A stretch of DNA of 64,000 nt, from NCBI GenBank assembly GCA_051362555.1, contig CM120648.1:8304587-8368586 (forward strand), in the 5' to 3' direction. Shown here in pieces: positions 1,230 to 44,905 of the stretch (position 1 is the stretch's first letter; every line of letters begins with the position of its first letter). The notes under the pieces are model-generated. The model ran no database searches, had not been told where the DNA came from, and saw only the letters and a program-made list of their open reading frames with translations. The stretch comes from Lingula anatina. Taxonomy: Eukaryota > Animalia > Brachiopoda. Both the position numbers and the translations under genes were made by a program.

Positions 1230-4021
1230 CTATAATAATGATTGCGTAAGGATAAATAATGAGGGCAAAAACAAAATGGCAGAAAGAGGGTGTAAGACAA
1301 AACCACTTGATGCTGCTTTCGTATCATCTGAGTTAAAACTAATTGCTGAATTTTTCACGGCAACCAGCCTCGTTGGCGCTCCACTCCCGTCAACATGAAC
1401 CATATGGAAGACAAATGCAGTGAATCCGGTTGGTGGCAGCTTGTCGAGATTGGCCACGCTCTCTAGCACGAGAAGCTTGGCGCCAAGAAAAGCCACGTGG
1501 GCCGGGAGAGATGTCGTCTGCCCTGCATCAACACTACGTGCGTCACTTCCGACTCCGATGAGTTTTCGATTGTTTTTCAACCACTCAGCTGCCTCTCCTG
1601 AGAAACCGGGGAAATGAACGAGAGCATGTCCTTGATAATTTTTCCAATGGGTGCGGTTAACAGTTCCGAGGTACTTCTTATAATCATCTACGTATTTCCC
1701 CCATCCACTGTACAAAAATACCATGGCATTGTCCGGTATCCGACCGTTCTCATATTCCCAATCATGGAGGTCTTTAACAGTCAACACGGCGTCCGGGTTG
1801 TTTGCGGCTTTTTTGGAAATATCCACTCGAATGGCCGGACCAATGAGGGTGTGGGCCGGAATTTGATGGATTCCCCATGAACCTTTGATGAAGTGCGCAG
1901 GCGCATCCAGATGCGTCCCAATATGCTCCGGGCCACAAAAGTCGTTGGTCTCGAGCCTAATGGTGTACAATTGTATATATGAAGGCGACAATAAATTCCA
2001 GTTGCTGGCTTATAATTGGATATGTCAATCAAGGCCTTTGAGGTATCATGATCCACAATTATTCCATTCAAATGTCATCAAACATTTATGGCACAATTTT
2101 AAGAAAACAAATATTAGTCTTTAAAAACCCCTTTACAATTGACGGCTTCCTTCCTGCGTCCTTTGTGCAACCATAAAACTGGCATGGCTGTGGTCATAGA
2201 AAGGAGACAAAAGCATCGCTTTGGTTGCAGAATGAATTGTCGCCACGAAAAGCATTATTTTTTTACTCATAAACGGGGCCGTACTATGGGGCACAGAAAG
2301 GACGCCGTCCAGTGTAAAGGGGGATTAACTGCAAGTTGGATGATTGGAGAAAAGTAAGCAATATTACTGAGGATAAAAAAATCAATAGAGAACAGTACAT
2401 GACAGCATTGTAACGTGAAATACTTAACAACTTTCTGATCAAGGAAAATTTTTCAGTTAGCAAAATTTACCATTTAAAAAGAACGTTCACTCGGTGACCA
2501 AAGCATACTCACCATACAGTATTGTTGCCCAGTCTGGTATAACCTCTACGTCTCACTAGTAGTTCAAAATTGGCACTACCCGGCCACGTCACCGTGTTGT
2601 TATCAAGGGCGTACGTAAGGTCAATTATGTCATCCGGGCCGGGAGAAATTTGGACGGTTTTGAATGCAATGATCCGCAAGGGGCCACCACTGCCGCCCTT
2701 TATTTTAACAGGCAGCATGGCCACTGAATACCCCTTGGGTGGAAGTTTGTCCAGATTTGCCACGACTTCTGCCATGTAGATGTTGTTTTTGCTTAGAGGA
2801 ATATGTGCCAAAGCAGTTTTACTTGGTCCTATCGAAGGACTGTCAATTCCAACGGCTGAGATTCTCCTGTTTTCTGCTAGCCATTTGGCGGCGCTTTCGG
2901 CAACTGCGGGGAAATTAAGAAGGGAATTTCCGTCACTGTCTCTTGCATTACCTGTGCCGTTATAACCAAAGAATGCAGTGCGATTGTTGATATATTTTCC
3001 CCAACCAGTGTAAACAAACAAGATGGCACCGTCTGGTATTTTGCCGTTGACCCTTTCCCAGTTCATCAGATCTTCCACCTCAAGGTTGGAGTTGGGATTG
3101 AGGTCTGCTTTGGCAGATATGTCGACTTTGATCGCTGTACCGAAAAACCTATGAGGTGGAATGTCTTGCACGTGCCATTTTCCTCGAGCAAAGTTCGCAG
3201 GCGCGTCCATGTGGGTGCCTTGATGTTCTGGTCGGCAAATGTCATGGTCTTCAAGCCTGAAGAGTCAATTATTAAATCATTTTCAGAACTTGAACAATAA
3301 ATCTTTTTACTTATCAGTATGCCAATTCTCCTACTTCAACCAACAGCTAATACTGAACATATTGGTCGTCTCGTATATTTGGAGGTCTATTTTAAAAAAT
3401 TGCTAATTGGGGAAAGGTAAGAAGAAGTGAGAAAAGATGAAGATGATGGGTATTGAATCTACAACTTCTAAAAATGCTTTACTGTGACGTAGATAAAAAT
3501 GTTTCTTTTTACACGCTAGTTGGCACCATGGGATATTCAGCAGAGGCGGATCCAGGATTATTGGAAGGGGGGATGGTGGTCCAGAACAATAGGTCTCGGA
3601 TGCGAAGCCGACCATCGCCCCTTTGGTGTGGGGTTCGGGGCCTGCTCAAGGCCACGAAAAATTTTTGGTGTTCTGGGGAGCAATAATTTAGCCAGTCAGA
3701 ATTCTAATTTCAAAAGGGGAATATTGATGCAGTATATTTTTCAGAAACCGAAGGGTGGTTCAGGACCCCTGACTCCCCCTCTAAATCCTCTACTGATCCA
3801 TTTCGAGGTATACTAATTTTTACATACCACCCAGCTCCAAAATCCACTGGACCCCTGTAGATACGTTTGTATCGAAACCTATTTCTCTCTTGCCCCGGCC
3901 AGACTAAACTGTCCTCTGACACCGCATACGTCATGTCTATAATCTCATGGGCGGCAGGACTCCATTGCGCATATACAATAGGGTTGCATAGCAACAGCAT
4001 TAGAACAGACGACGGCACCAT
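1230..4021 (-). CDS. Double-domain cyclase-family hydrolase (KynB/isatin hydrolase-like), copy 1; exons 3828-4021, 2513-3256, 1230-1956; 554 aa; signal peptide and GPI-like tail
   Basis: Exon 1 is a hydrophobic leader (MVPSSVLMLLLCNPIVYA) plus IIDMTYAVSEDSLVWPG. Donors TG|gtatgt (3827) and TG|gtgagt (2512); acceptors ttcag|G (3256) and ttag|G (1956). Lengths 194+744+727=1665 nt, in frame. Motifs EHQGTHMDAPANF and EHIGTHLDAPAHF, GIDSPS/GSDARS, ANLDKLP, GSGGP/GSGAP. Tail DTKAASSGFVLHPLSAILFLPSLFILTQSLL. Confidence 0.88.
3541..3795. mobile_element. Short TIR element in intron 1 of copies 1-4 (also ~14262-14552, ~19650-19900, ~26179-26423)
   Basis: Starts cagaggcggatccaggat and ends aaatccgccactg (degenerate in copy 1), with G-runs and C-runs near the two ends. 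Absent from intron 1 of copies 5, 6 and 8. Confidence 0.5.
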
Positions 4022-4118
4022 TTTTCACTGATGAAAAATAAATTTATATTCATGTACATCTATGCCGAGAACTATTTTGTTCGAGTGATAAAAAACAGTT
4101 CTAGTGAGCAATTCTTAA

Positions 4119-4456: not shown

Positions 4457-6216
4457 TCAATAAGACAGTTATGCCAACGTTTACTCTTGATATTGCACAC
4501 TGGAACTGAGGACTTTTGAAGTTTTCAGATAAGAATCTCGAAATATGGCTCTGCAGTGGAAGTTGGTTAAACCACTCGTAATATAAGGGTTATAGCTTAT
4601 AACAAAAATTATATGTTAAAATCATCACATTGTTTTTAAACACAAGTATTTCGTTAATATTACTTAGAGATTACCTGGTTAAACTTAAGCACATGTATAT
4701 CAGTCACTACAATGGCCTTGCCTCGGAATATCTTCTGCAAGATCTTGGGGGGTAGGGGAGATCTATGGAGCTCTCCGTCTACGTGTAAGCGGATCAGATG
4801 TTGTTCTGCTTGTGCGCCTTTTGGACAAGAAAGACGTGACAAGATATTTAAACCCGGCTTACATGTGTTTTGTTGACATTAAGGTACAGTTTGAACGTGA
4901 AGGAAGGCAGCATGAAGGGCCATGTCTTGTTAGGTCAGTAGCTCAAGAGAAAGATCACAGAATGCACGTGTTTAGACTTATCGCTTGCTTGTTAGACCTT
5001 GGATATAATAACGAATGAAACTTTCAATCGTGTCTTGAATTAAAATGTCGCAATTTCTCTCCGATTTCTTAGGCTCGGTGACATTTCTTTTAGGCTGGCA
5101 TTTTTATGTGTCTTTTAAATAAAGATGATGTTAATGTCAAAGGCCCCAATCAAATCTAGTCCCATGCATATAAAGCCTAGACCCCCTGTTGATTACACCC
5201 TGGCTGGGCCCATTCTTTAAGGTGTCTCTGCATTGTTAACAGCATAATGGGCAAGTTAATTGACCAAGTTAATTGGCCAAGCTCCCAGTCTGTTTGTAGG
5301 TGTAATTATAAAGGGGGTGTCTTAGACCAAGTTAATTGCCCAAGCTGCCAGTTTGTTTGTTTGGCATGTGCAGGGGATGTCTCAGATCAAGGCACATATT
5401 ATGATACTTACAGGTACTAACAAATGAGACATAGTTGTATTTCATTACCTGTGATTTGTAAAATACATCTGAGGATGATACTTTAAAAGATGTTAAATGT
5501 TTAAAGAAAAGACATGTAGGTTGATTTAGTAACATTTACTAAAGATATGTTAAATTAAAGATGGGCTTCATTTGTTCGTGTGTTATTTTGATTATCCAGA
5601 TTTTATACAGATTATAGGAAAAATTCTGCCCATTAATGTTTTGTTGATCTCAGGGACCGCGAGAAATTGCGTTATCAGTGCAAAAGAACAGTAGAAATAC
5701 ACTGGGTCACAGCGCGCGCGACCTCTATAATAATCTGTTCAGGCTCCAATGGAACTATCAAAACCGCTTATCTGAGACAATGGACGCACATGTCTTCAAA
5801 GGGAGATGCTGCGTTTCAAGTCCCTTCGTTGTTAATAATGTCCAAGGTTAGATGTGTCTTATAATGTTGGTTGCTCAGCTGATATGTCCGAGTGTGAGCG
5901 TGCCTATTAGCCTCGTTGTGATGTTTGTGTAGAAGCCGAGCATAATTGCATTTCTAATTTCTATGCATTTAAAGCGTATGAAAAATAATAAATGTAAGAC
6001 ATTTGGTATAGTATGAACCTCTGGTTATAATTTTGCTATATATTTCGTAAAAATACTAGTATTACACATCTGTCTGAACACTTCAAATTGACGCCAATGG
6101 AATGAAATATTACATACACAAAATTGCTCTCATTTATCCTGTAAGATTTGAAAACGCCTCTATAAACTATATTTGACAAACTTTTATCTATATGGGACAT
6201 TTTTGAAAATGATATA

Positions 6217-6450
6217 TTATAATGTCCGCGAAAAGATAAATAATGAGGGCAGAAACAAAATGGCAGAAAGAGGGCGTTAGACAAAGCCACTTGATGCTGC
6301 TTTCGTATCCTCTGTGATAAAGGTAATTGCTGAGTTTTACACGGCAACCAGCCTCGTTGGCGCTCCACTCCCGTCAACGTGAAGCATATGACATATAAGG
6401 CCGTGTAACCATTTGTTGGCAGCTTGTCAAGATTGGCCGCGTTCTCTAGC
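6217..6450 (-). pseudogene. 3' relic of exon 3 of a cyclase-family gene (copy-5 tail type)
   Basis: LENAANLDKLPTNGYTA, then a frameshift, then DNA matching VDGSGAPTRLVAV and a tail ending SRTL*. An internal TAA replaces a Leu codon. Homology stops abruptly at ~6450. Confidence 0.8.
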
Positions 6451-11308: not shown

Positions 11309-11567
11309 CATTCAGAACAGATGATCCGAGGACTAATTGATCCCCCGACTAAATATGGCCGACCACACTTCAAAAACGATATTCTCCCCGCCTCCACACG
11401 CACCGTCGCTGCAGGGGCCTAGAAACCGCGGAGCCGAGATTTAATCCGTTTAATGGCGCGTGTGGAGGTGGGGAGACCATGGGGAATCAGCGGCATCACT
11501 TTTGAAGTGGGGTCGGCCATATTTAGTCGGCGGATCTGTAAGCTGGCGGATCATCTTGTTCTGAATG
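11309..11567. mobile_element. Foldback MITE-like inverted repeat
   Basis: cattcagaacagatgatccg...ccgactaaatatggccgaccacacttcaaaa is mirrored by ttttgaagtggggtcggccatatttagtcgg...cggatcatcttgttctgaatg. Confidence 0.65.
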
Positions 11568-15782: not shown

Positions 15783-15784
<2 letters not shown>

Positions 15785-15851
<67 letters not shown>

Positions 15852-17407: not shown

Positions 17408-20126
17408 CTATAATAATGACTGCGTAAGGACAAATAATGATGGCAAAAACAAAATGGCAGAAAGAGGGTGTAAGACAAAACCACTCGATGCTGCTTTCGT
17501 ATCATCTGAGTTAAAACTAATTGCAGAGTTATTCACGGCAACCAGCCTCGTTGGCGCTCCACTCCCGTCAACATGAACCATATGGAAGACAAATGCAGTG
17601 TATCCGGTTGGTGGCAGCTTGTCGAGATTGGCCACGCTCTCTAGCGCGAGAAGCTTGGCGCCGAGAAAAGCCACGTGGGCCGGGAGAGATGTCGTCTGCC
17701 CTGCATCAACACTACGTGCGTCACTTCCGACTCCGATGATTTTTCGATTGTTTACCAACCACTCAGCTGCCTCTCCTGAGAAACCGGGGAAATGAACGAG
17801 AGCCTGTCCTTGATCATTTTTCCAATGGGTGCGGTTAGCAGTTCCGAGGTACTTCTCATAATCATCTACGTATTTTCCCCATCCGCTGTACAAAAAAACC
17901 ATGGCATTGTCCGGTATCCGACCGTTCTCATATTCCCAATCATGGAGGTCTTTAACAGTCAACGTAGCGTCCGGGTTGTTTGCGGCCTTTTGGGAAATAT
18001 CCACTCGAATGGCCGGACCAATGAGGGTGTGGGCCGGAATTTGATGAATTCGCCATGAACCTTTGATAAAGTGCGCAGGCGCATCCAGATGCGTCCCAAT
18101 ATGCTCCGGGCCACAAAAGTCGTTGATCTCGGTCCTAACGGTGTACAATTGTATATATGAAGGCGACAAAATATTCCACTGGCTGGTTTATAATTAGATA
18201 TGTCAATTAAGGCCTTTGAGGTATCATGATCCACAATTATTCCATTCAAACGTCATCAAACATTTATGGCAAAATTTTAAGAAAACAGAAATTAGACTTA
18301 AAAAAAAAAACCTTTACACTGGACGGCTTCCTTTCTGCGTCCTTTGTGCAACCATGAAACTGGCATGGCAATGGTCGTAGAAAGGAGACACAAGCATTGC
18401 CTTGGTTGCAGAATGACTGCTCAGTAATCGGCCAGTTGTCGGCACGTAAAGCATTATTTTTTAAATTTTAAACAGGGCCGTACTAGGGGGCACAGAAAGG
18501 ACGCCGTCCAGTGTAAAGATGGTTTTACTGCCAACTGGATGATTGGAGAAAAGTAAGCAATATTACTGAGGATCAACAGTAACTGACAGCATTGTAACGT
18601 GAAATAGGCCTACTGAACAACTTTCTGATCAAGTTAATTTTTTCAGTTAGCAAAATTTACCATTTAAAAAGAACGTTCACTCAGTGACGCAAGTATATAT
18701 ACGTACCATACAGTATTGTTGCCCAATCTAGTAAAACCTCTTCGTCTCACTAGTAGTACAAAACTGGCACTACCCGGCCATGTAACCGTGGTGTTATCAA
18801 GGGCGTACGTAAGGTCAATTACGTCAGCCGGGCCGGGAGAAACTTGGACAGTTTTGAACGCAATGATCCGCAAGGGGCCACCACTGCCGTCTTTTATTTT
18901 AATAGGCAGCATGGCCACTGAATATCCCTTGGGTGGAAGTTTGTCCAAATTGGCCACGACGTCTGCCAAGTAGATGTTGTTTTTGCTTAGAGGAAGATGC
19001 GCCAAACCAGTTTTACTTGGTCCCATCGAAGGACTGTCAATTCCAACGGCTGAGATTCTCCTGTTTTCTGCCAGCCATTTGGCGGCGCTTTCGGCAACTG
19101 CGGGGAAATTAAGACGGGAATGTCCGTCACTGTCTCTTGCTTTACCCGTGCCGTTATAACCAAAGAATGCAGTGCGATTGTCGATATATTTTCCCCAACC
19201 AGTGTAAACAAACAAGATGGCACCATCTGGTATTTTGCCGTTGACCCTTTCCCAGTTCATCAGATCTTCCACCTCAAGGTTGGAGTTGGGATTGAGGTCT
19301 GCTTTGGCAGATATGTCGACTTTGATCGCTGTACCGAAAAACCTATGAGGTGGAATGTCTTGCACGCGCCATTTTCCGCGAGCAAAGTGCGCAGGCGCGT
19401 CCATATGGGTGCTATGATGTTCTGGTCGGCAAATGTCATGGTCTTCAAGCCTAAAGAGTCAATTATTAAATCATTTTCAGAACTAGTACAATATATCTTT
19501 CTACTTTTCAGTATGCCTATTCTCCTACTTCAACCAACAGCTAATAATGAACATATTGGTCATCTCGCATATTTGGAGGTCTATTATAAAATTTTGCTAA
19601 GTGGGAAAAAGTAAGAGAAGAGAGAAAAGACGAAGATGATGAATATTCAGCAGAGGCGGATCCAGGATTATTTGAAGGGGGGGGGGGGGGGGTCCAGAAC
19701 AACAGATCTCGGATGCTAAGCCGACCATCGACCCCTTGGTGTGGGGACCGACACATTTTTGGTGTTCTGGGGAGCAAACAGGGTCATTCGGTACGGTTTA
19801 GAACTATAATTTAGCTAGTCAAAATTCCAATTTCAAAAGGGGAATATTTCAGAAACCGTAGTTGATTTAGGACCCTTGCCCTTCTCTAAACCCGCTACTG
19901 ATTCATTTGGAGGTATAATATAGATTACATACCACCCAGCTCCAAAATCCACTGGACCCCTGTAGATACGTTTGTATCGAAACCCATTTCTCTCTTGCCC
20001 CGGCCAGGCTAAACTGTCCTCTGACACCGCATACGTCATGTCTATGATCTCATGGGCGGCAGGACTCCAGTGCGCATGTACAATGTGGTTGCATAGCAAC
20101 AGCATTAGAACAGACGTCGACGCCAT
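17408..20126 (-). CDS. Double-domain cyclase-family hydrolase, copy 3; exons 19933-20126, 18707-19450, 17408-18134; 554 aa; signal peptide and GPI-like tail
   Basis: Canonical GT-AG sites, 194+744+727 nt. Motifs EHHSTHMDAPAHF and EHIGTHLDAPAHF. Tail AASSGFVLHPLSAILFLPSLFVLTQSLL. Confidence 0.88.
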
Positions 20127-22224: not shown

Positions 22225-22333
22225 TTATATTGTCCGCGAAATGATAAATAAATAGGGCAGAAACAAAATGGAAGAAAGAGGGCGTAAGACAAAACCACTC
22301 TGTGCTGCTTTCCTATCATTTGAGATAAAAGTA
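22225..22333 (-). pseudogene. Relic 3' tip (anchor tail only) of a copy-5-type cyclase gene
   Basis: Matches 29169-29277 (VLRPLSSILFLPYLFI). At 22333 it joins directly to sequence matching ~32031 onward, i.e. upstream of copy 5. Confidence 0.75.
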
Positions 22334-23597
22334 CATGCATGCCAGAAACAGGATAGCGAACTGGAGCATAAAATAAATATTTATAGCCATTTGCTTTTTA
22401 CCATACAAAAATAAGTGCAAACACTGACTTCTGCACAAATACTATACTAGCTTGTCATAAACTTTGGAAGGATACTCCCAGTAAGACTATTGAATTGAAA
22501 TATAGGCAAAATTACTCTGGACTCTTAATTATCATATTGATCAAATTATTAATTCAGGGTTGTAGTAATAACAAGACTTACAAAAACCATCAGAAAAGAG
22601 CATCATTATTGAGCCATTTCCCCCCTTTTTTTTTTTGCTACTTTATTGATTTCTCATTTAACGCCGAGAATAAATTAAAATGTAGGTATAGTACAACGCA
22701 ATCTAGCTAGTACTGGGAACCACCTAGTAGTCATACCTTTGTCTTCTTACTGTCTCCCAAACGTCCCTGGAAATGCGAGGTTTACAGCAGAACTTCTCCA
22801 TTCTATCTGCCTCCTCTGTGGAACAAAATATCTGCAACTATGCATGGTATTTTGCTAGGCGAACTCCCGGAGCCTTTTCAGTCTTATTTCACGCCCTGGT
22901 TGATATGAGTGTCTGCTACAGAAAGTAGAAGCTTGATTGTACATGTAACTTAGAACCATGCTATCTCTGGCTGAAATGCTTTGCGATCCGAGGGATTAAT
23001 AAAGACAAAGTTTTCTTCCAAGCGTCACTCAAGGTGCCAACATCTGGGACTTTGGTATAAGCAATGAGGGATGCAGCCTAGTAACAACTTGGTGCATTAA
23101 GTTGAGCAAATTTAAGCATACAACGAGAGCACTGGTGATTATCTCATGACAAAGACAAAGAGGAAACTTGTCTGCAATGATATAACCTATTAACGGTATT
23201 ATATTTAGAGCAGTTTGTAGCAAGAATAGCGTGGATTTTTACTTATGATGTATAAAGATTAGTATTTACGCGTCTGATGGGTATGTTCTTTCGTTGTTTG
23301 TCTTTTTATAGGGAACTATGGAACATTATACTGGTTTATTAAATCATACAGTGACCTGAAAAGGAGTAAAAAAATTATCACTTAGTAAATAGATATAATT
23401 GTCTTCGTCTATATTTAAAGCAAACGTACGTCCCATTGTCGTCAGGGAAGTTGTCCGGTTGGTTTCATATCTAATCGAACTAAATAACTATATTTTATAT
23501 GTTTGATGTCAAAGCGAGAAAAAAAGCTATCATGCCACTCCGTACCTTTGATACTGGTACCACTCTGTAGTCCAATGGAATTTTAATGGGTGATTTT

Positions 23598-24027: not shown

Positions 24028-26649
24028 CTAGTTAAAACTAATTGCTGAGTTTTTCACGGCAACCAGCCTCGTTGGCGCTCCACTCCCGTCAACATGAACC
24101 ATATGGAAGACAAATGCAGTGAATCCGGTTGGTGGCAGCTTGTCGAGATTGGCCACGCTCTCTAGCGCGAGAAGCTTGGCGCCGAGAAAAGCCACGTGGG
24201 CCGGGAGAGATGTCGTCTGCCCTGCATCAACACTACGTGTGTCACTTCCGACTCCGATGATTTTCCTATTGTTCACCAACCACTCAGCTGCCTCTCCTGA
24301 GAAACCGGGGAAATGAACGAGAGCCTGTCCTTGATCATTTTTCCAGTGGGTGCGGTTAGCAGTTCCGAGGTACTTCTCATAATCATCTATATATTTCCCC
24401 CATCCACTGTACAAAAAAACCATGGCATTGTCCGGTATCCGACCATTCTCATATTCCCAATCATGGAGGTCTTTAGCAGTCAACATAGCGTCCGGGTTGT
24501 TTGCGGCTTTTTTGGAAATATCCACTCGAATGGCCGGACCAATGAGGGTGTGGGCCGGAATTTGATGGATTCGCCATGAACCTTTGATGAAGTGTGAAGG
24601 CGCATCCAGATGGGTCCCAATATGCTCCGGGATACAAAAGTCGTTGATCTCGTGCCTAATGGTGTACAATTGTATATATGAATGCAACAATAAATTCCAG
24701 TTGCTGGTTTATAATTAGATATGTCAATCAAGGCCTTTGAGGTATCATGATCCACAATTATTCCTTTCAAACGTCATCAAACACTTATGGCACAATTTTA
24801 AGAAAAACAGATGTTAGACTTTAAGAACCCCTTTACACTGGACGGCTTCCTTTCTGCGTCCTTTGTGCAACCATGAAACTGGCATGGCTGTGGTCATAGA
24901 AAGAAGGCACAAGCATCGCTTTGGTTGCAGAATGAATGCTCAATGATCGGCCAGTCGTCGGCACGTAAAGCATTATTTTTTTACTCTCAAACGGGGCCGT
25001 ACTATGGGGCACAGAAAGGACGCCGTCCAGTGTAAAGGGGGCTTAACTGTCAGTTGGATGATTGGGGAAAAGTAAGCAATATAACTGAGGATCAAAAAAT
25101 CAATAGAGAACAGTACATGACAGCATTGTAACGTGCAATACTAAACAACTTTCTGATCAAATAACATTTTTCAGATGGCAAAATTTACCATTTAAAAAGA
25201 ACGTTCACTCAGTGACCAAAGTATATATACGTACCATACAGTATTGTTGCCCAGTCTGGTATAACCTCTACGTCTCACTAGTAGTTCAAAACTAGCACTA
25301 CCCGGCCATGTAACCGTGGTGTTATCAAGGGCGTACGTAAGGTCAATTACGTCAGCCGGGCCGGGAGAAACTTGGACAGTTTTGAACGCAATGATCCGCA
25401 AGGGGCCACCACTGCCGTCTTTTATTTTCATAGGCAGCATGGCCACTGAATATCCCTTGGGTGGAAGTTTGTCCAAATTGGCCACGACGTCTGCCAAGTA
25501 GATGTTGTTTTTGCTTAGAGGAAGATGCGCCAAACCAGTTTTACTTGGTCCCATCGAAGGACTGTCAATTCCAACGGCTGAGATTCTCCTGTTTTCTGCT
25601 AGCCATTTGGCGGCGCTTTCGGCAACTGCGGGGAAATTAAGACGGGAGTTTCCGTCACTGTCTCTTGCATTACCCGTGCCGTTATAACCAAAGAATGCAG
25701 TGCGATTGCCGATATATTTTCCCCAACCAGTGAAAACAAACAAGATGGCACCATCTGGTATTTTGCCGTTGACCCTTTCCCAGTTCATCAGATCTTCCAC
25801 CTCAAGGTTGGAGTTGGGATTGAGGTCTGCTTTGGCAGATATGTCGACTTTGATCGCAGTACCGAAAAACCTATGAGGTGGAATGTCTTGCACGCGCCAT
25901 TTTCCGCGAGCAAAGTGCGCAGGCGCGTCCATGTGGGTGCTATGATGTTCTGGTCGGCAAATGTCATGGTCTTCAAACCTAAAGAGTCAATTATTAAATC
26001 ATTTTCAGAACTAGTACAATATATCTTTCTACTTTTCAGTATGCCTATTCTCCTACTTCAACCAACAGCTAATACTGAACATATTGGTCATCTCGCATAT
26101 TTGGAGGTCTCTAATAAAATTTTGCTAAGTGGGAAAAAGTAAGAGAAGAGAGAAAAGATGAAGATGATGAATATTCAGCAGAGGCGGATCCAGGATTAGT
26201 TGAAAGGGGGGGGGGTCCAGAACAACAGATCTCGGATGCGAAGCCGACCATCGACCCCTTGGTGTGGGGACCGACACATTTTTGGTGTTCTGGGGAGCAA
26301 ACAGGGTCATTCGGTACGGTTTAGAACTATAATTTAGCTAGTCAAAATTCCAATTTCAAAAGGGGAATATTTCAGAAACCGTAGTTGATTCAGGACCCCG
26401 GCCCTTCTCTAAATCCGCTACTGATTCATTTGGAGGTATAATATAGTTTACATACCACCCAGCTCCAAAATCCACTGGACCCCTGTAGATACGTTTGTAT
26501 CGAAACCCATTTCCCTCTTGCCCCGGCCAGACTAAACTGTTCTCTGACACCGCATACGTCATGTCTATGATCTCATGGGCGGCAGGACTCCAGTGCGCAT
26601 GTACAATGTGGTTGCATAGCAACAGCATTAGAACAGACGTCGACGCCAT
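24028..26649 (-). CDS. Double-domain cyclase-family hydrolase, copy 4; exons 26456-26649, 25235-25978, 24028-24655; 521 aa; TAG stop just before the anchor tail
   Basis: 194+744+628 nt in frame. Motifs EHHSTHMDAPAHF and EHIGTHLDAPSHF. Ends SAISFN*, and a hydrophobic tail continues in frame after the stop to 23917. Confidence 0.82.
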
Positions 26650-29168
26650 TTTTTCACTGAAGAAAAATAATTTGAATATACATGTACATTTATGCCGAAA
26701 ACTATTTTGCTCGAGTAATAAAAAACAGCTAGTTCTAGTGTATAATTCTTAAAGGGATAACAACTGTTGATTTTGGCTAAAAAGTGGATTCTACTGGGGT
26801 AAAGGACATTTTTTCCATCTTTACCAATGGTTAATGAATCCATTCCATCATTCAAAGTTATTCCCCCTCTTTTTTTCTAAAAAGATTGTGTTTTTTGCAA
26901 TATTCTCTTAAGAGATTATTACAGAGTGTAGCCATCTATGGAATCACGTAATATGGGGGCAAGCATAAATTCTAGAATAATTAATTGTCCTTTCGGTGGT
27001 AAAACAGAATTTATCATTTTCCAATGAGTTTACTCTGTATATATTGTGAAATATGGAGATCATACGAACAGTTGTTATCCCTATAATAAGACAGTAATAC
27101 CAACGTTTACTCTTGATATTGCACACTGGAATTGAGGACTTTTGAAGTTTTCAGATTAAGGATCTCGAAATATGGCTCTACAGTGGAAGTTGGTTAAACC
27201 ACTCGTAACATAAGGGTTAATTATAGCTTAATTATAACAAAAATTATATGTTAAAATCATCACACTGTTTTTTAACACAAGCATTTCCTCAATATTACTT
27301 AGAGATCACCTGGTTTAGCTTAAGCACATGTATATCAGTCGCTACAAGTGCCTTGCCTCGGAATATCTTCTGAAAGATCTTGGGGGGTAGGGGAGATCTA
27401 TGGAGCTCTCCGTCTACGTGTAAGCGGATCAGATGTTGCTCTGCTTGTGCTCCTTTTGGACAACAAGGACGTGACAAGATATTTAAACGCGGCTTACATG
27501 TGTTGTGTCGACATTAAGGTACATTGTGAACGTGAAGGAAGGCAACATAAAGGGCCATGTCTTGTTAGGTCGGTAGCTCAAGTAAAAGATCACAGGATGC
27601 ACGTGTTTAGACTTGTCGCTTGCTTGTTAAACCTTGGATAAAATAACGAATGAAACCTTCAATCGTGTCTTGAATTAAAATGGCGCAATTTCTCTCAGAT
27701 TTCTCAGGCTCGATGACATTTCTTTTAGGCTGGCATTTTTATGTACTAGTACCTTTTTAAATAAAGATGACGTCAACACTGCTGTGTACTGCATATATAT
27801 GTTCATGTTACCAGCTAATGTCTGCTCTTAGCCTGAGATGCGGCTATAATGAAGCCTTCAATAGTGCCTTGAATTAAAATGACGCAGTCTCTCTGATTTC
27901 TACTACTATTTCCTTTTAATTTAATTTATGTATGTCTTTTGATCAAGGGCGAAAATATAGTACTACTAATAACACAAAATAATACAATACGTGATTTTTA
28001 AATGTATTTTTATTGCTATAAAATACTATGATTATAAAATTTCTCAAATATTTATTCATGTAGGTTTTAAGGCAAATGTAGGCCAAATTCGACAGAAGCG
28101 CAAATGGATTGCCAAATGCTTGTAAAACATTATAAACTGGAGGTCGCCTACATGGATCAAACACCATTCTTCACCGAGGGCGCTACATTGGAAACATGAA
28201 GCAGGTCAACTCCATTTCGAGGTCGACCTTGAAAAACTGGTCGCCCTTTCCGCGAGTGTTCGACAATATGGCGTGCTGTTGTGTCAGTGCAGTAGGAAGC
28301 TGAAATAAAAAGACCAAAACTTTATGAACATCGTGCCTGAAGGTACACGAAAACACTTTTAATTGGATTTACATACTACAAGGTGCAACAGAGGACCCAC
28401 AGAGATTGTCAGAACGTGGATATTTCAAGGTACTTAAGTGTCTCAAGGTTTTTTGTTCAGACTGCTAAGAAGCCTTACCAGCGGTAAGGGTACCGTGAGC
28501 TTGTAAGGCCGAAAACTGAGGCAACCTTTGTCTTGGCATTTGTCACTGATTAGTGCCTACCCCGGTGTAAAAGGTGTATTAGTGTAATCATATGTGTGGA
28601 ATTTCATGTCAGATGGACATATAAAGATCTAAAAATTCGTCACAATATTTAAAAAAGATACATCTTTGCACAGCAGTCGTAGATCGGTAAGATTCAGTTG
28701 TTAGTTACGAACTACTTCCTGGTTTTCACAAGGTCCTTCAATAACTCTAAAACATCATTATTATTGCAGCACATACCATAAAACACCCAAAAATACTTAG
28801 ATGTGGACATATCGGATTATATAAATGTCAAAATTCCACATGAGAACGATTTATAGCCTCCTGGGAATTCCTTTCCATTTCTAATTTACTGGTATATGCA
28901 TTTAAAGCGTATGAAAAATAATGAATTTCAGACATTTGATTATAGTATGAACCTCTGGTGATAATTTTGGTATACATCTCGTAAAAAGACCAGTATTACA
29001 CATCTGTCTGAACACTTCAAATTGACGCCAATGGAACGAAATATTACATACACAAAATTGCTGTCATTTATCCTGTAAGATTTGAATACGCCTTCATTTG
29101 GATAAACTATAACTATATTTGACAAACTCTTATCTATATGAACATTTTTGCAAATGATATACAGTGTA

Positions 29169-31493: not shown

Positions 31494-31536
<43 letters not shown>

Positions 31537-33438: not shown

Positions 33439-36262
33439 TTACATCAAGACAGTAAGGACAACAAATGAGGGCAAAAGCAAAATAGCAAAAAGAGGACGTG
33501 ACATTTGGCCATCTGAAGCTACTTTCGTATCATCCGAGTTAAAACTAATTGCTGAGTTTTTCACGGCAACCAGCCTCGTTGGTGCTCCACTCCCGTCAAC
33601 ATGAAGCATATGGAAGACAAATGCAGTGAATCCGATTGGTGGAAGCTTGTCGAGATTCGCCACGTTCTCTAGCGCGAGCAGCTTGGCGCGGAGAAAAGTC
33701 ACGTGAGCCGGGCAAGATGTCGTCTGCCCTACATCAAAACTGATTGTGTCACTTCCGACTCCGATGATTTTTCGATTGTTTACCAGCCACTCAGCTGCCT
33801 CTCCTGAGAAACCGGGGAAATGGACGAGAATTTGCCCTTGGTCGTTCATCCAATGGGTGCGGTTAGCAGTTCCAAGGTACTTCTCATGATCATCCACGTA
33901 TTTCCCCCATCCACTGTTCAAAAATACCATGGCATTGTCCGGTATCCGACCGTTCTCATATTCCCAGTCATGGAGGTCTTTAACAGTCAACATGGCGTCT
34001 GGGTTGTTTGCAGCCTTTTTGGAAATGTCTACTCGGATCGCCGGACCAATGAGGGTGTGGGCCGGAATTTGATGGATTCGCCATGAATCTTTTATGAAGT
34101 GTGCGGGCGCATCTAAATGCGTCCCTCCATGCTCTGGACCACAAAAGTCGTTATACTCAACCCTGCAATGATATGTAGAATTTAACACCTTTAAATTTCG
34201 TCGAATTTGTCAGATATGAGAGAGTGAATGTCCCGATTCACAAATCAGAATGATATAACAAGAGGAAAATTTAATATACAATACATACCACGGGGCTGAT
34301 ATCAAAACAAAAGGATTGCAGGGACCGATACAGTGAATGAGACGGAGTGACTGCCACGTGCGGAAGATGGGCAGGAAATCGGCCAACTACTCAGAAAACC
34401 ACTAACGCAAACGAAGATGATTGGACGGTGACCGCAATTAGGCAGTAAACGCGAGGAAAGTCCATTCTTTGATATCACCCCATGCGCGGTGATATCAGCG
34501 TGTTCTATTCAAAGTTAGGGGTTTTGGGTGGGGAACACGCACGATTTCCCTTTGTATGTATGACAAATAATGCACTGTTACCCCCTCGCCCGATATCCAC
34601 GATAGCATGCCTCGCTGGCGCTCGGTCTGCTATCGTGATATCGGGCTCGTGGACAGTGCATTATTTACTACTTACACCGGGCCTACGAGGTCATAACGCA
34701 ACGATCCAACGTTGCAATCGGGATCACATACAGGTATTATCTTCTGCAGGGAAATGATTGTCAATGGCGGATCAAGTATATGGCCACCTTTTAAAAAGCT
34801 TGTCGTCTAATCCCCTAATCTGTATTAGATAGATTCCCTGCAGGGATATGCTTCTCATACCTCATATTGCTATCCTATTAACCTTTTTATTTCGAAATAA
34901 ATGTAAAACTTATGTTTGTATACGCACCACACAGAATTGTTGCCTATCTTCATATATCCTTTTTGTACCGGAAGTAGTTTAAAGCTGGCCCTACCCGGCC
35001 ACATCACCGTGCTGTTTCCAAGGGGATACGTAAGATCAACAACGTCTTCAGGACCGGGAGATATTTGGACTGTTTTGAATGCAATGACCCGCAAGGGGGC
35101 GCCGCTGCCGTCCTTTATATTGACCGGTAGCATGGCAACTGAATATCCTTTGGTTGGAAGTTTATCTAAGTTTGCTACACTCTCTGCGTTAAAGATGTTC
35201 TTTTCATGGAGTGGAACGTGGGCCATATAAGAACTGCTTGGTCCTATTGAAGGACTATCAACTCCTACGGCTGAGATTTTCCTGTTCTCTGCTAGCCATT
35301 TGGCGGCGCTCTGGGATACCGAGGGAAAGTGCAGATCGTTTTTCCAATCACCTGCCCCATCATAACCGTAATATGCTGAACTGTTGGTGTGATATTTTCC
35401 CCAACCCGTGTATACGAACAAGATGGCACCGTCTGGTATTTTGCCGTTGGCGCGTTCCCAGTTTTCTACATCTTTTACCTCAAGGTTATAGTCGCGGTTG
35501 AGTGCTGCTTTGGCAGAAATGTCAACCTTTATCGCCGGACCAAAAAACCTGTACGGAGGAATGTCCTGCACGTACCATTTTCCGCGAGCAAAGTGCGCAG
35601 GCGCGTCCAAGTGGGTGCCCTGATGTTCTGGTCGGCATATATCATTGTCTTCTAGCCTAATAGGAAAGCAATGAATGACTGAAATTACCAACTGAAAAAC
35701 GCTGCTTTCTCTGTGCAAAATGAATTTACGCTACGGATTTTATTCACAATTTGCGGGAATGCGGAAAAGTAGCATCCAAAACCGAAAATAATATAGTGTA
35801 TAATTAATACGGCTTGCCCTGTCTCTGGACCTTCTATATTTCCTCTAAGTAAAAGTAAAGTTTCAACTTTTGGAGGAAGCAGACGATAAAAAACTTTTAT
35901 CAAACTGAGACATGCACTAAAACAGAATTTAAATGGAATAACAACTGTTCATAAGAGATTAAAATTCCACAATTAATACATTGTAAACTCATAGAAATAT
36001 AATATACTCCATTTCACCACCAAAACATCGATTGTAGTGCATCTTTATAGTCATTTTCGAGTGATACGTACCAACCTGCACCGTACTTCCACTGGTCCCT
36101 TCTAATACGTGTATAATGAAACTTCATGTTAAACCCAGGCCAAACTAGGGAGTCCTCTGACATCACGTACGTCATGTCTATGATTTCATGGGCGGCAGGA
36201 CTCCAGTGCGCATGTGCAATATGGTTACATAGCAACGCAAACAGAATGGTAGATGGTGCCAT
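33439..36262 (-). CDS. Double-domain cyclase-family hydrolase, copy 6; exons 36072-36262, 34928-35656, 33439-34162; 547 aa; signal peptide and GPI-like tail
   Basis: 191+729+724 nt in frame with GT-AG sites. Motifs EHQGTHLDAPAHF and EHGGTHLDAPAHF. Tail DTKVASDGQMSRPLFAILLLPSFVVLTVLM. Confidence 0.88.
34279..34672. mobile_element. ~390 bp insertion in intron 2 of copy 6 with a subterminal hairpin and no obvious TIR or TSD
   Basis: Absent at the sister site ~42220 (aatata-ttataccggg). Hairpin aaataatgcactgt...cccgatatccacgatagca...tgctatcgtgatatcggg...acagtgcattattt at ~34565-34666. Confidence 0.6.
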
Positions 36263-37857: not shown

Positions 37858-38045
37858 CATCTAGTGCCAACCAGGCCCCTCTGAATACGCGTATAGTGAA
37901 ATTTCATTTTAGACCCAGGCCAAACTGGGTAGTCCTCTGCGTATGTCATGTCTATGATTTCATGGGCTGCAGGGCTCCAGAGCGCATGTGTAATATGGCT
38001 GCGCATGCATAGCAACACAAACAGAAGGAAAGTAGCTGGCGCCAT
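37858..38045 (-). pseudogene. Orphan first coding exon (copy 7) of a copy-5-type cyclase gene; possible alternative first exon for copy 6
   Basis: MAPATFLLFVLLCMRSHITHALWSPAAHEIIDMTYAEDYPVWPG...GTRW, 188 nt, with an in-frame 6-nt deletion relative to copy 5. Intact donor TG|gtatgt. It has no exons 2-3 of its own. Confidence 0.75.
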
Positions 38046-38319
38046 TTTGACTGAAAAACAAATAAAAGAGACATGCAACTTTCTATTATAATCCTCATAC
38101 TGTAAGACACGCAATAAAAACACAGATTAATTTCAAGTATTTTGCATAGGCCTATATGATTAACATGTATAAAAACTTGTTTGTGCAAATGCAGGTACTT
38201 TGTACATTTGAATACAATATACATGTATACCCTGGATGTCCATTTGCTCGTTCTCTATTGCCTTCACAACATTTTGTAATTAAAACAATAAAAATCACAT
38301 TGTATATTCAATGCGCAAA

Positions 38320-38365
<46 letters not shown>

Positions 38366-39864: not shown

Positions 39865-40079
39865 GACCCCATTCCCAGAGATTAGATCGATCTATTTTAG
39901 ATCGACTTAACGCCCTGGGGGTTCACGCTAAATAGCTGTCAGCCGAGTGGGCACGAAAGTTAATTACCCCCTTACAGCTTGTAGTAAGCGGGACGGACAT
40001 TTAAGCCGGATTATCTGACAGTAATCTAGTGAGACTCACCGCGGTGATAGATCGATCTAAAAGCTCTGGGAATACGCCC
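39865..40079. mobile_element. PIF/Harbinger-like MITE (3-bp TSD ATA here, TAA in other copies); copies at 48646-48869, ~62545-62680 (partial), 63165-63390
   Basis: gaccccattcccagagattagatcgatct ... agatcgatctaaaagctctgggaatacgccc. Empty site at ~33021-33035. Shared core taattaccccttacagcttgtagtaggcgggacggac. TAA flanks at 48643/48870 and 63162/63391. Confidence 0.8.
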
Positions 40080-40432
40080 ATAGTCTTGCATCGCATTCAA
40101 AATCAATACATGTACAGAACCGTGAGCAAAGGTTCGTGCCTGCTGGGGTCGGTAGCTCAGCTGATAGATAACAATGTAAGCGTGCTTAAAATATACTGTA
40201 ATATTTATTATGATCGTGTGTAATTTCTCACTTAATAACTCACTTAATATTTGAGACTGTTAAAAAAACTCTGAAAAAAATCGATCTTTGTCGTCTATTA
40301 TCCTCGAAGCATGTTCAGGAGTCTGTCTCAAGATATCGAAATAAAGTCAAAAGAGCGAAAACCCCTACTACCGGTATATACATGTAGACTTTTCATCAAT
40401 CATTTACATTTTTCAATTTAAAAAGACCTGCC

Positions 40433-41334
40433 TACGGAGCTTTGTTAGTATCATATTAACTTTTTTTATTTTCATTAAAGTTTTATGTCATGGAATTTTC
40501 ACCGCGGTGAAAATTATTTTCACCGTGGTGAAAAATAATTTACACCGCGGTGGGAATCAATTTTCACCGCGGTGGAAAATAATTTTCACCGCGGTGGTAA
40601 TTCCTGGCCATCTCGGCCCGGGTAATGCATACATGTAGGTTATACGAATCCAACAATTACCAGATGTCTGGAAAGGACGTTGATAAAGACAAGCATATGC
40701 ACATGCACGCGGTTTAACCGGTCTATGTGCCAATCATCCCAGGAATCTGGAGGAAGCAGGCAGTATTCGAATAGATTAAAAATCACTGAAATGCTGCAAT
40801 GTTGTACGTGGCTTTTCCCTTTATAATAACTTGTGCATTATTGGGAATATTGGTAGAAAAAAACTTTTCCGAAGAAACCGAGATTACATCTATTAAGATG
40901 AGATCTAAGAAACACATCACAAAATATTTAGTAATAACAATGGGATTCCCTTTGCATAAAACTGCAAGCGGGACTTTAATTTCATAGGTGGTAAATATAG
41001 ATGGGAAACTTAAGTTAACGGCAGTGGCCCCACGAACAGATCCACCAACCTTGTGTGTATGTAACAATAGCATGCACCGTGACGGAATCTGGCAAATGTA
41101 AGGTTCTCATTACCTATTCATCACCCGGGCCGAGATGGCCAGGAATTACCACCGCGGTGAAAATTATTTTCCACCGTGGTGAAAATTAATTCCCACCGCG
41201 GTGTAAATTATTTTCACCGTGGTGAAAATTATTTTCACCGCGGTAGAAATTATTTTCACCGCGGTGAAAATTCCATAAAATAAAACTTAAATGAAAATAG
41301 AAAAAAGTTAATATGATACTAACAAAGCTCCGTA
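40433..41334. mobile_element. Non-autonomous DNA transposon, ~190 bp TIRs containing palindromic sub-repeats, 6-bp TSD CCTGCC
   Basis: cctgcc-tacggagctttgttagtatcatattaact ... agttaatatgatactaacaaagctccgta-cctgcc. Empty site at ~33375-33390. Arrays of aaaattattttcaccgcggtg at both ends. Confidence 0.88.
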
Positions 41335-41387
41335 CCTGCCTGCATTTATGACAGTTTTTTTCATGCATGCTTAAATTTTGCAATGAC

Positions 41388-44300
41388 TTACAACAAGACA
41401 ATAAGGACACAAAATAAGGGCAAAAGCAATATAGCAAAAAGAGGACGTGACATAGGGCCATCTGAAGCTATTTCATCCGAGTTAAAACTAATTGCTGAGT
41501 TTTTCACGGCAACCAGCCTCGTTGGTGCTCCACTCCCGTCAACATGAAGCATATGAAAAACAAATGCGGTATATCCAGATGGCGGAAGCTTGTCGAGATT
41601 AGCCACAATCTCTAACGCGAGCCGCTTGGCGCGGAGAAAAGTCACGTGGGCCGGGAAAGATGTCGTCTGCCCTGCATCATAACTGATTGTGTCACTTCCG
41701 ACTCCGATGATTTTTCGATTGTTTACCAACCACTCAGCTGCCTCTCCTGAAAAACCGGGGACATGAAGGAGAGACTGTCCTTGATCATTTTCCCAGTGGG
41801 TGCGGTTAGCAGTTCCGAGGTACTTCTCATAATCATCTACGTATTTCCCCCATCCACTGTACAAAAATACCATGGCATTGTCCGGTATCCGACCGTTCTC
41901 ATATTCCCAATCATGGAGGTCTTGAACAGTCAACACGGCGTCCGGGTTGTTTGCGGCTTTTTTGGAAATATCCACTCGAATGGCCGGACCAATGAGGGTG
42001 TGGGCCGGAATTTGATGGATTCGCCACGAACCTTTGATGAAGTGTGCAGGCGCATCTAAATGGGTCCCAGCATGCTCTGGACTACAAAAATTGTTAAAAT
42101 CCACCCTGCAATGATATGTAGAATTTTACAGTTTTAAATTTTGAGTGTTTGTCAGATATGAGAGAGTGAGTGTCCCTATTCACCAATCAGAATGATATAA
42201 CAAGAGGAAATTTCAATATATTATACCGGGCGTACGAGGTCATAACGCAACGATCCAATCGGCATCGCTTACATTTACAGGTATTATCTTTGACAGGGAA
42301 AATGAGTGTCAATGGCACAACAGCCATTCACAACAGCGGACTATCAAGTCCGCGGATCAAATATAGCCACCCGTTTAAAAAGCTTGTCGTTTTATCCCCT
42401 TATCTGTACTCAAAGGATTCCCCGCGGGGATTACCCAACAAGCATTCATGTGGGTCGACTGTATTTGATCCGCGGTCCTCTGACCAGTCACGTGACCAGG
42501 TTACATGTACCAGGTCACTGAAACTCATTTCCTTGTTGAAGACCAGTCTTACCGATCACAACGACGTGTCGAGGAATTATTACCTGGTAGGTCCAGTATA
42601 TAAGACTGATAAGATTTTTCCTATGATGCTAGTCAGGCATATTCGCTTAAGGAACCGTCACCATGGACAGAAATGGCATTTTAAGGTATAACAACTGTTC
42701 ATTTGGCCCAAAAAAGGATTTCCCTGGGGAAAACGACAAATTTCGCCATACTTACCAATGGTTAATGAATCCGTTCCAACATTCAAAGTAAGTTCTTATT
42801 TTATTTTCCAAAAAGTTTGTTTAATTTTGCAATTGTCTCCTTAAAATAATTATTAAGGTAGCCATCTATGGAGGCCACGTGGTGACGGCAAGCAAAGATT
42901 CCAGGATAATTGCGTTTTGGTAATAAAATAGAAATAACTATATTTCTATAAGTTGTTTACAATGTATTTCTTGTGAAATATGCTTCTCATATCTCATATT
43001 TCTATCCTATTAACCTTATTATTTCGAAATAAATGTAAAACTTATGTTTGTATACGCACCACACAGAATTGTTGCCTATTTTCATATATCCTTTCTGTAC
43101 CGGAAGTAGTTTAAAGCTGGCCCTACCCGGCCACATCACCGTGTTGTTTCCAAGGGGATACGTAAGATCAACAACGTCTTCAGGACCGGGAGATATTTGG
43201 ACTGTTTTGAATGCAATGATCCGCAAGGGGGCGCCGCTGCCGTCCTTTATATTGACCGGTAGCATGGCAACTGAATATCCTTTGGTTGGAAGTTTATCTA
43301 AGTTTGCTACACTCTCTGCGTTAAAGATGTTCTTTTCATGGAGTGGAACGTGGGCCATATAAGAACTGCTTGGTCCTATTGAAGGACTATCAACTCCGAC
43401 GGCTGAGATTTTCCTGTTCTCTGCTAGCCATTTGGCGGCGCTCTGTGATACCGAGGGAAAGTGCAGATCGTTTTTCCAATCACCTGCCCCATCATAACCG
43501 TAATATGCTGAACTGTTGGTGTGATATTTTCCCCAACCCGTGTATACGAACAAGATGGCACCGTCTGGTATTTTGCCGTTGGCGCGTTCCCAGTTTTCTA
43601 CATCTTTTACCTCAAGGTTATAGTCGCGGTTGAGTGCCGCTTTGGCAGAAATGTCGACCTTTATTGCCGGACCAAAAAACCTGTAAGGAGGAATGTCCTG
43701 CACGTGCCATTTTCCGCGAGCAAAGTGCGCAGGCGCGTCCAAGTGGGTGCCCTGATGTTCTGGTCGGCATATGTCATTGTCCTCTAGCCTAATATGAAAG
43801 CAATGAATGACTGAAATTACCAACTGAAAAACGCTGCTTCTTCTGTGCAAAATGAATTTACTCAACGGATTTTATTCATAATTTGCGGAAATGTGGAAAT
43901 GTAGCATCCAAAACCGAAAATAATATAGTGTATAATTAATACGGCCTGCCCTGTCTGTGGACCTTCTACATTTCCTCTAACTAAAATTAGAGTTTCACCT
44001 TTTGGAGGAAGCAGACGATAAAAAAAACTTTTATCAAACTGAGACATGCACTAAAACAGAATTAAAATGGAAGAACAACTGTTCATAAGAGATTAAAATT
44101 TCACAATGAGTACATTGTAAACTCATAGAAATATAATGTACTCCATGTTACCACCAAAAAATCGGATGAAGTGCATCTTTATGGTCATTTTCGAGCGATA
44201 CGTACCAACCTGCACCGTACTTCCACTGGTCCCTTCTAATACGTGTATAATGAAACTTCATGTTAAACCCAGGCCAAACTAGGGAGTCCTCTGACATCAC

Positions 44301-44396
44301 GTACGTCATGTCTATGATTTCATGGGCGGCAGGACTCCAGTGCGCATGTGCAATTTGGTTGCATAGCAACGCAAACAGAATGGTATACGGTGCCAT
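41388..44396 (-). CDS. Double-domain cyclase-family hydrolase, copy 8; exons 44206-44396, 43060-43788, 41388-42105; 545 aa; signal peptide and GPI-like tail
   Basis: 191+729+718 nt in frame with GT-AG sites. Motifs EHQGTHLDAPAHF and EHAGTHLDAPAHF. Tail DEIASDGPMSRPLFAILLLPLFCVLIVLL. Confidence 0.88.

Positions 44397-44900: not shown

Positions 44901-44905
<5 letters not shown>

What the first reader, a model, noticed from the sequence alone, without database searches (positions are those of the whole stretch)
1230..44396. Expanded array of secreted, apparently GPI-anchored, double-domain KynB/isatin-hydrolase-like enzymes in an animal genome
Seen: six open three-exon genes plus four remnants, all head-to-tail. 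Each open gene encodes a signal peptide and two cyclase domains, with N-glycosylation sequons (NRT, NGT, NNT/NST). Four of them end in a small-residue spacer plus terminal hydrophobic stretch with no cytoplasmic tail. Known: characterised cyclase-family (PF04199) enzymes such as bacterial KynB and isatin hydrolase are single-domain metal amidohydrolases acting on tryptophan/indole-derived amides, while the standard animal kynurenine formamidase (AFMID) is an unrelated alpha/beta hydrolase. Inference: this is a diversifying cell-surface amidohydrolase battery, e.g. for degrading dietary or microbial indole/isatin compounds or for pigment chemistry. Bases 1-1130 match the spacer between copies 2 and 3, so the array probably continues to the left.
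Basis: partly seen in the sequence, partly recalled or inferred. Interest (0 to 1): 0.8.

Follow-up and report, generated by a model that had tools for sequence, protein, structure and literature searches.

The report
Twin-domain surface hydrolase array in Lingula
A lamp-shell (Lingula) gene cluster encodes proteins that join two copies of a bacterial-type metal hydrolase domain in one chain, predicted to be anchored on the cell surface, with the second copy likely the working enzyme and the first, which lacks a key catalytic residue, likely a structural partner; the substrate is untested.

Summary
The array is real. On the minus strand lie six open genes (signal peptide plus two PF04199 cyclase domains) and four remnants; four genes end in a GPI-type tail. 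RefSeq Lingula anatina proteins match four of the six almost exactly, and RNA reads from a copy of one subfamily span both coding introns. New here: the two domains are unequal. Domain 2 keeps every catalytic residue in 13 of 13 Lingula proteins. Domain 1 lacks the Asp that positions the catalytic His in 12 of 13, and three of the 13 have lost their metal ligands, yet it is under purifying selection in the window genes. Solved relatives are swapped dimers, so the protein is most likely a single-chain asymmetric dimer. The isatin-hydrolase signature is absent, so the proposed substrate is unsupported. Signal peptide + one cyclase domain + GPI-type tail is common in invertebrates; doubling arose separately in hemichordates. 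I found no paper describing either form. Verdict: new variant of a known enzyme fold, moderately interesting, substrate open.

The parts
41388..44396 (-). Gene A, open, 545 aa; exons 44396-44206, 43788-43060, 42105-41388; GPI-type tail
   Evidence: 3 differences from RefSeq XP_013393302
37858..38045 (-). Orphan exon 1, a copy of C's exon 1 (block 37599-39864 is 95% like 30777-33028)
33439..36262 (-). Gene B, open, 547 aa; exons 36262-36072, 35656-34928, 34162-33439; GPI-type tail
   Evidence: 7 differences from XP_013388290
29169..31229 (-). Pseudogene C; three exons, frameshift in exon 2, stop in exon 3
27301..27480 (-). Conserved upstream block with a likely non-coding first exon; copies at 20477-20654, 16523-16694, 4666-4845 and 542-718
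   Evidence: joint 26658/27383 in 4 reads; blastn 87-94%
24028..26649 (-). Gene D, 521 aa; exons 26649-26456, 25978-25235, 24655 onward; stop codon removes the GPI-type tail
22246..22338 (-). Remnant of an exon-3 tail (C type)
17408..20126 (-). Gene E, open, 554 aa; exons 20126-19933, 19450-18707, 18134-17408; GPI-type tail
   Evidence: 10 differences from XP_013393357
12193..14779 (-). Gene F, open, 544 aa; exons 14779-14586, 13992-13249, 12889-12193; basic tail, no anchor signal
   Evidence: 3 differences from XP_013393356, same tail
6220..6449 (-). Degraded end of an exon 3 (frameshift and stops)
1230..4021 (-). Gene G, open, 554 aa; exons 4021-3828, 3256-2513, 1956-1230; GPI-type tail; domain 1 also has Asn for the second catalytic His
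2..891 (-). Upstream region of a further copy that probably starts left of the window
   Evidence: 79% like 16011-16862; block at 542-718

Best explanation
These genes encode secreted glycoproteins, predicted to be GPI-anchored, in which two cyclase-fold domains likely fold together as a single-chain version of the swapped dimer seen in bacterial relatives; domain 2 likely carries a working two-metal hydrolase site and domain 1 likely serves mainly as its structural partner. Shown: gene structure, two domains, intact residue set in domain 2, missing Asp in domain 1, splicing in one subfamily. Inferred: a metal-bound hydroxide in domain 2 attacks an amide, lactam, ester or lactone bond of a small extracellular molecule; the hairpin of domain 1 completes the pocket of domain 2; the one conserved Cys of each domain may bridge the two. 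The gene arose by tandem fusion of a two-exon single-domain gene, which explains two phase-2 introns at the same codon, and copies have since exchanged exon 3. The most likely role is breakdown of dietary, microbial or sediment-derived small molecules at an epithelial surface.
For: Fold: AlphaFold2 model of the RefSeq twin of A has pLDDT 82 and pTM 0.85; domain 1 aligns with cyclase-PTE 8F9X at Z 29.2, rmsd 2.1 over 209 of 226 residues, and isatin hydrolases at Z 26-27. Relatives are dimers whose hairpin lines the partner's site and whose first and last strands form the interface (PMC4243253 section and passages; PMC6117287; PMC12135135). Residues: all seven canonical positions in 13 of 13 Lingula second domains; Asp193 equivalent deleted in 12 of 13 first domains but present in 169 of 171 single-domain rows; metal ligands lost in first domains of P0005, P0015 and P0079. 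dN/dS of domain 1 core 0.18-0.22 in the 8 between-subfamily pairs. Cys in both domains of 13 of 13 Lingula, 3 of 3 hemichordate and 2 of 2 scorable ostracod proteins, against 29 of 171 single-domain rows. RNA joints for intron 1 (13 and 15 reads) and intron 2 (7 reads).
Against: No activity, metal or localisation was tested. Window first domains keep most metal ligands under purifying selection, so they may be active in another way. The model's inter-domain contacts could not be inspected; pTM is indirect. The signal peptides have a short hydrophobic core and were called by rule only; so were the GPI tails, with no chance control. The RNA reads match no window copy fully (best F, 9 of 11 listed differences; one implies a residue absent from all six), and subfamily A/B showed no joints in 8 of 9 runs laid. 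The family is promiscuous, so sequence does not fix the substrate.
Confidence: 0.55

Rival explanations
1. Both domains are active, with different chemistry: domain 1, lacking the Asp behind the His, holds its second metal loosely or uses one metal and acts on another substrate, giving a two-site enzyme.
For: First domains of A, B and F keep His, His, Asp, His, His and Glu; D and E have Asp for Glu. Purifying selection is as strong as on domain 2. Four of five pocket-related positions are among the 12 most variable of 200 domain-2 columns, and two of them would line domain 1's site.
Against: The Asp is kept in 169 of 171 single-domain rows; first domains lost their ligands outright in two separate Lingula lineages; G lost a catalytic His.
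Confidence: 0.2
2. One reading: dedicated isatin hydrolases or kynurenine formamidases for indole or pigment chemistry.
For: Closest solved sequences are cyclase-PTE and isatin hydrolases (E 1e-31 to 1e-19). Cyclase-PTE has Glu at the signature position and still hydrolyses isatin (PMC9371700 section 6). Databases name single-domain relatives 'isatin hydrolase-like' or 'kynurenine formamidase-like'.
Against: GLQC/GLAS and WxW signatures absent; TIGR03035 far below cut-off; eukaryotes use an unrelated serine hydrolase for this step (PMC4243253 passage); N-formylkynurenine is made inside cells (recalled).
Confidence: 0.12
3. The proteins are non-catalytic or weakly catalytic surface binding proteins (small-molecule or microbe recognition), and the array turns over by birth and death without new enzyme specificity.
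For: Four remnants and two tail losses among ten loci; mosaic exon 3 explains much of the variation without selection; a secreted plant relative, CYCLASE1, is reported in cell-death control (PMC4458720, abstract start and passages only).
Against: Domain 2 catalytic set is complete in 13 of 13 Lingula proteins, which a pure binding protein would not need.
Confidence: 0.1
4. Assembly or annotation artefact: tandem haplotypes, or neighbouring single-domain genes wrongly joined.
For: A/B and D/E are 98% alike in exons 1-2; the Acanthaster double protein P0006 looks like such a wrong join.
Against: Exon 3 of those pairs is only 90-92% alike; three copies sit on one 98-kb RefSeq scaffold with slightly different sequence; exon 2 itself spans the domain boundary without stop, tail or second signal peptide; reads join exons 2 and 3.
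Confidence: 0.03

Closest known systems
Cyclase-phosphotriesterase of Ruegeria pomeroyi (PDB 8F9X)
   Same: Best sequence and fold match (E 4e-31; Z 29.2); same ligand set with Glu for a two-zinc site; swapped dimer; periplasmic; acts on isatin, lactones and phosphotriesters
   Different: One domain per chain, symmetric homodimer, no anchor; about 32% identity
Isatin hydrolases LaIHA, LaIHB, RsIHA (5NNA/5NNB, 4J0N, 5NMP)
   Same: HxGTHxDxPxH motif, Asp-His-His relay complete in domain 2, Z 26-27
   Different: One Mn ion; GLQC/GLAS and WxW signatures absent here; single domain; no anchor
Bacterial kynurenine formamidase KynB (4CO9, 4COB, 4COG)
   Same: Same fold (Z about 21), ligands His, His, Asp, His, Glu, pocket Trp, partner-supplied pocket wall
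   Different: Below TIGR03035 cut-off; 22-27% identity; shorter, single domain
Invertebrate secreted single-domain cyclases, auto-named isatin hydrolase-like or kynurenine formamidase-like
   Same: Signal peptide and GPI-type tail in 35 of the 150 best 50%-cluster representatives; named examples in Priapulus, Patella, Babylonia, Halotydeus, Cordylochernes, Acanthaster
   Different: One domain with the full catalytic set; no characterisation found in my searches
Hemichordate double-domain proteins (Glandiceps, Ptychodera)
   Same: Signal peptide region, two domains, GPI-type tail, Cys in both domains
   Different: Separate origin on the tree; 6 of 6 domains keep the full catalytic set

Membership tests
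PF04199 putative cyclase family | Pfam score above gathering cut-off | tested here: met
   Two stretches per protein, 243-262 bits against 23.1 for the RefSeq twins of A, E, F; exon ORFs 109-126 bits
PF04199 putative cyclase family | HxGTHxDxPxH motif | tested here: met
   6 of 6 second domains; first domains of A, B exact, D, E, F with Ser for Gly, G with Asn for the last His
PF04199 putative cyclase family | KynB/isatin-hydrolase fold | tested here: met
   Foldseek E 5e-22; VIA Z 29.2 for domain 1; domain 2 was barely tested by VIA on its own
Isatin hydrolase | GLQC/GLAS motif | tested here: not met
   Glu or Asp at the Gln219 position in 12 of 12 window domains (motif from PMC6117287)
Isatin hydrolase | WxW/FxW pocket motif on the swapped hairpin | tested here: not met
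   No Trp at either position in the ungapped register in 12 of 12 window domains; HMMER's gapped register would match only the first Trp
Isatin hydrolase | Asp193-His207-His79 relay | tested here: met
   Met in 6 of 6 second domains; Asp missing in 6 of 6 first domains
Isatin hydrolase | Mn-dependent isatin hydrolysis | not testable with these tools
   Needs an assay
KynB arylformamidase | TIGR03035 equivalog cut-off | tested here: not met
   99-113 bits against 223
KynB arylformamidase | Two-metal ligand set His50, His54, Asp56, His161, Glu173 plus His60 and Asp151 | tested here: met
   All present in second domains; Asp151 equivalent missing in first domains
KynB arylformamidase | N-formylkynurenine hydrolysis | not testable with these tools
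   Needs an assay
GPI-anchored protein | N-terminal signal peptide | tested here: inconclusive
   Hydropathy peak 2.0-2.5 and small residues at -3/-1 before the mature start in 6 of 6; no trained predictor available
GPI-anchored protein | Small-residue omega site, spacer, terminal hydrophobic stretch, no cytoplasmic tail | tested here: met
   Rule-based: A, B, E, G have omega-like sites 24-27 residues from the end; D and F do not; no chance control run
GPI-anchored protein | PI-PLC release from the cell surface | not testable with these tools
   Needs an experiment

The most novel reading that the evidence does not exclude
Invertebrates carry an undescribed class of GPI-anchored cyclase-fold ecto-hydrolases. 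In Lingula the obligate homodimer was fused into one disulfide-locked chain, which freed the halves to diverge into one catalytic and one metal-binding or pocket-shaping half; swapping of exon 3 between tandem copies then mixes catalytic cores with different partner hairpins and yields a combinatorial set of substrate pockets for disarming sediment, dietary or microbial small molecules.
Probability: 0.3. Interest if true: 0.65.

Novelty: new variant of a known kind. Interest (0 to 1): 0.45.

Why it matters
The family's characterised bacterial members hydrolyse formylkynurenine, isatin, esters, lactones and organophosphates, while the animal members appear untested. A surface-anchored animal form would add an extracellular small-molecule hydrolase to invertebrate chemical ecology and detoxification. 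The Lingula proteins are also a clean natural case of a homodimer fused into one chain and becoming asymmetric, with a symmetric independent fusion in hemichordates as a comparison. It is not a new kind of system: duplicated domains with one dead half and tandem arrays are familiar (own knowledge).

Tried and rejected
No whole genome is held for this window, so the left end of the array and total copy number were not seen. No RNA holder listed in the run search; nine raw-read runs were offered by species label and 8 of 9 were laid. One search (4 runs, 28500-46500, 94% likeness) gave no exon joints and almost no depth on exons 1-2 of A, B, C; this is inconclusive, as tissues are unknown. No exon 1 to exon 3 skip was among the joints shown, but 51 joints were not shown. 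No two-chain model of domain 1 with domain 2 was obtained, so their geometry is untested beyond pTM. Positive selection: only one core-domain pair (F/G exon 3, 4 synonymous and 18 non-synonymous changes) exceeds dN/dS 1; not tested for significance. Single origin of domain doubling: rejected by AU test. Link to shell formation: no hit for cyclase, isatin, kynurenine or PF04199 in the main text and one supplementary file of PMC13425148 or the one supplementary file of PMC4595640 (main text seen as listing only); further supplements may exist that were not held. Nine literature searches listed no paper whose title or abstract start describes animal GPI-anchored or double-domain PF04199 proteins; subscription journals are largely missing. 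Earlier findings of this scan: none. The stretch 6450-12270 behind F holds only short ORFs and inverted repeats; they were not scanned against protein families.

Full report
Observation. Six-frame translation and tblastn show repeated cyclase-like exons on the minus strand from 44396 to 1230. Every coding intron is GT..AG and phase 2 and splits the same Trp codon just before the catalytic motif, so exon 2 holds the core of domain 1 and the start of domain 2. This is what a tandem fusion of a two-exon single-domain gene would leave (inference). A, B, E and G end in a GPI-type signal by rule; D has a stop codon in front of its tail and F a basic tail.

Organism and independent support. The best database hits are RefSeq proteins of Lingula anatina. 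A, B, E and F differ from XP_013393302, XP_013388290, XP_013393357 and XP_013393356 at 3, 7, 10 and 3 positions; D and G have no close twin among the four compared. Three of these lie on one 98-kb scaffold, so the array exists in a second assembly. At least seven more Lingula double-domain genes lie on other scaffolds.

RNA. Eight of nine offered runs were laid. One search (four runs, A to C region) gave no exon joints. In one search, runs X8 and X9 cover exons 2 and 3 of D at similar depth (about 9-20 per direction), X3 and X5 hardly at all. Intron 1 is spanned by 13 and 15 reads. Seven reads join the end of exon 2 to an exon-3 start (laid on copy C, with letters of the F/G type). Four reads join the acceptor before the ATG to a block about 730 bases upstream, which recurs before D, E, F, G and at 542-718. 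The reads match F best (9 of 11 listed differences) but imply one residue found in none of the six, so they come from a further copy or a divergent allele. Splicing is therefore shown for the D-G subfamily, not for a named window copy.

Fold. AlphaFold2 on the RefSeq twin of A with a 13-sequence alignment gives pLDDT 82.2 and pTM 0.85. Foldseek and VIA place it with isatin hydrolases, cyclase-PTE and KynB (Z 29.2 to 20.7, next unrelated row 7.9). These enzymes are dimers in which a hairpin of one subunit lines the other's site, and in KynB the first and last strands form the interface (PMC4243253, passages and section 17; PMC6117287, parts 1-3 of 6; PMC12135135, parts 1-2 of 6). The link of about 11 residues between the domains fits a single-chain dimer; this is inferred, as contacts could not be inspected.

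Catalytic residues. Mapped through the alignments onto 227 domain rows (38 short domains, RefSeq twins of window genes, isoforms and redundant cluster members dropped). All 13 Lingula second domains keep His69, His73, Asp75, His79, Asp193, His207 and a Glu at 219 (LaIHA numbering). Twelve of 13 first domains have a two-residue deletion that removes Asp193, the residue that positions the catalytic His in isatin hydrolase and the metal-binding His in KynB; it is present in 169 of 171 single-domain rows. First domains of P0005, P0015 and P0079 have lost their metal ligands. The Glu points to a two-metal site of the KynB/cyclase-PTE type; the isatin-hydrolase signatures are absent, and the KynB equivalog is not reached. 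One Cys four residues before the first His is kept in both domains of 13 of 13 Lingula, 3 of 3 hemichordate and 2 of 2 scorable ostracod proteins, against 29 of 171 single rows; in five of six window proteins it is the only Cys pair of the mature part. By the KynB strand register it would lie near the two-fold axis, so a bridge between the domains is plausible but untested; kin share this trait, so the counts are not independent.

Evolution within the array. Between subfamilies A/B and D-G, dN/dS is 0.18-0.22 for the domain-1 core and 0.18-0.39 for the domain-2 core (8 pairs each), so domain 1 is maintained. Synonymous distance is mosaic: between subfamilies 0.77-0.85 in exon 2 but 0.21-0.36 in exon 3; between A and B 0.06 against 0.31. 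Exon 3 has thus been exchanged among copies. Of 200 domain-2 columns 12 have three or more residues among the six; four of five pocket-related positions named in PMC6117287 are among them (hypergeometric p 4e-5). This test is post hoc, and two of the positions are the first codons of exon 3, where exchange boundaries could fall.

Distribution. Among the 150 best representatives of the profile search, 35 single-domain proteins have a signal-like start and a GPI-type tail, 22 more the tail alone, and 15 have two domains (rule-based). Six of ten tailed singles looked up carry names, all invertebrate. Double-domain forms occur in hemichordates, ostracods and unnamed, probably prokaryotic, sequences. 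In a 55-row IQ-TREE (55 of 227 rows chosen after seeing the FastTree) Lingula domains 1 and 2 group together with a nemertean and one unnamed single (95/92), hemichordate domains form their own clade (99/93), and a clade of all first domains is rejected (p-AU 4e-6). Doubling therefore arose more than once; the nemertean row leaves open whether the Lingula doubling predates brachiopods.

Function. The family is promiscuous: cyclase-PTE acts on isatin, lactones and phosphotriesters (PMC9371700, passages and section 6) and MGS0169 is mainly an esterase (PMC5341072, passages). Secreted eukaryotic members are known in plants (PMC4458720, abstract start and passages) and laterally acquired ones in Entamoeba marina (PMC12930195, passages). 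I therefore commit to a surface metal hydrolase with domain 2 as catalyst (0.55) and leave the substrate class at amide, lactam, ester or lactone; isatin or formylkynurenine specifically gets 0.12.

Verdict. The enzyme fold and mechanism are known, and the secreted tailed form is common in invertebrate genomes though undescribed in the papers I could search. New variant of a known kind; interest 0.45.

Noticed in passing
window 50763-51554 (-): Single open frame with a GNAT acetyltransferase domain (PF00583, E 6e-19) behind a hydrophobic stretch; resembles NAT8/camello-type membrane acetyltransferases (recalled, not tested). A possible detoxification neighbour 6 kb upstream of the array.
   Followed up: partly
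window 60892-61806 (+): Exons of an OTU-like deubiquitinase (PF02338, E 4e-5).
   Followed up: no
window 53893-54885: Broken Tc1/mariner-type transposase (PF01498, E 9e-10 at 54316-54621).
   Followed up: no
window 47238-48455: Head-to-tail repeat of about 610 bases at 99.7% identity; recent duplication or assembly artefact.
   Followed up: no
window 8530-9436: Element with 117-base terminal inverted repeats, 95% complementary; MITE-like. A long palindrome lies at 11319-11556.
   Followed up: no
window 38045-37858 and 35656: The orphan exon 1 is open and phase-compatible with exon 2 of gene B, so it could serve as an alternative first coding exon; no reads show this.
   Followed up: partly
P0006 (Acanthaster planci XP_022107079): The annotated double-domain protein has an internal hydrophobic tail and a second signal-like segment; likely two neighbouring single-domain genes joined by the annotation.
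   Followed up: partly
P0071-P0077, P0083, P0088, P0090, P0097, P0157, P0161, P0183: Double-domain cyclases in unnamed, probably prokaryotic, sequences; in several the two domains are each other's closest relatives, so fusion of the dimer recurs outside animals.
   Followed up: partly
P0022-P0036, P0092 and kin: A group of signal-peptide-bearing, probably bacterial cyclases falls among the animal sequences in the FastTree with weak support; possible gene transfer, direction unknown.
   Followed up: no
window 32420-32545 and 39260-39425: Short repeat heavily covered by RNA reads that run on into unlike sequence; a dispersed transcribed repeat, not part of the genes.
   Followed up: no
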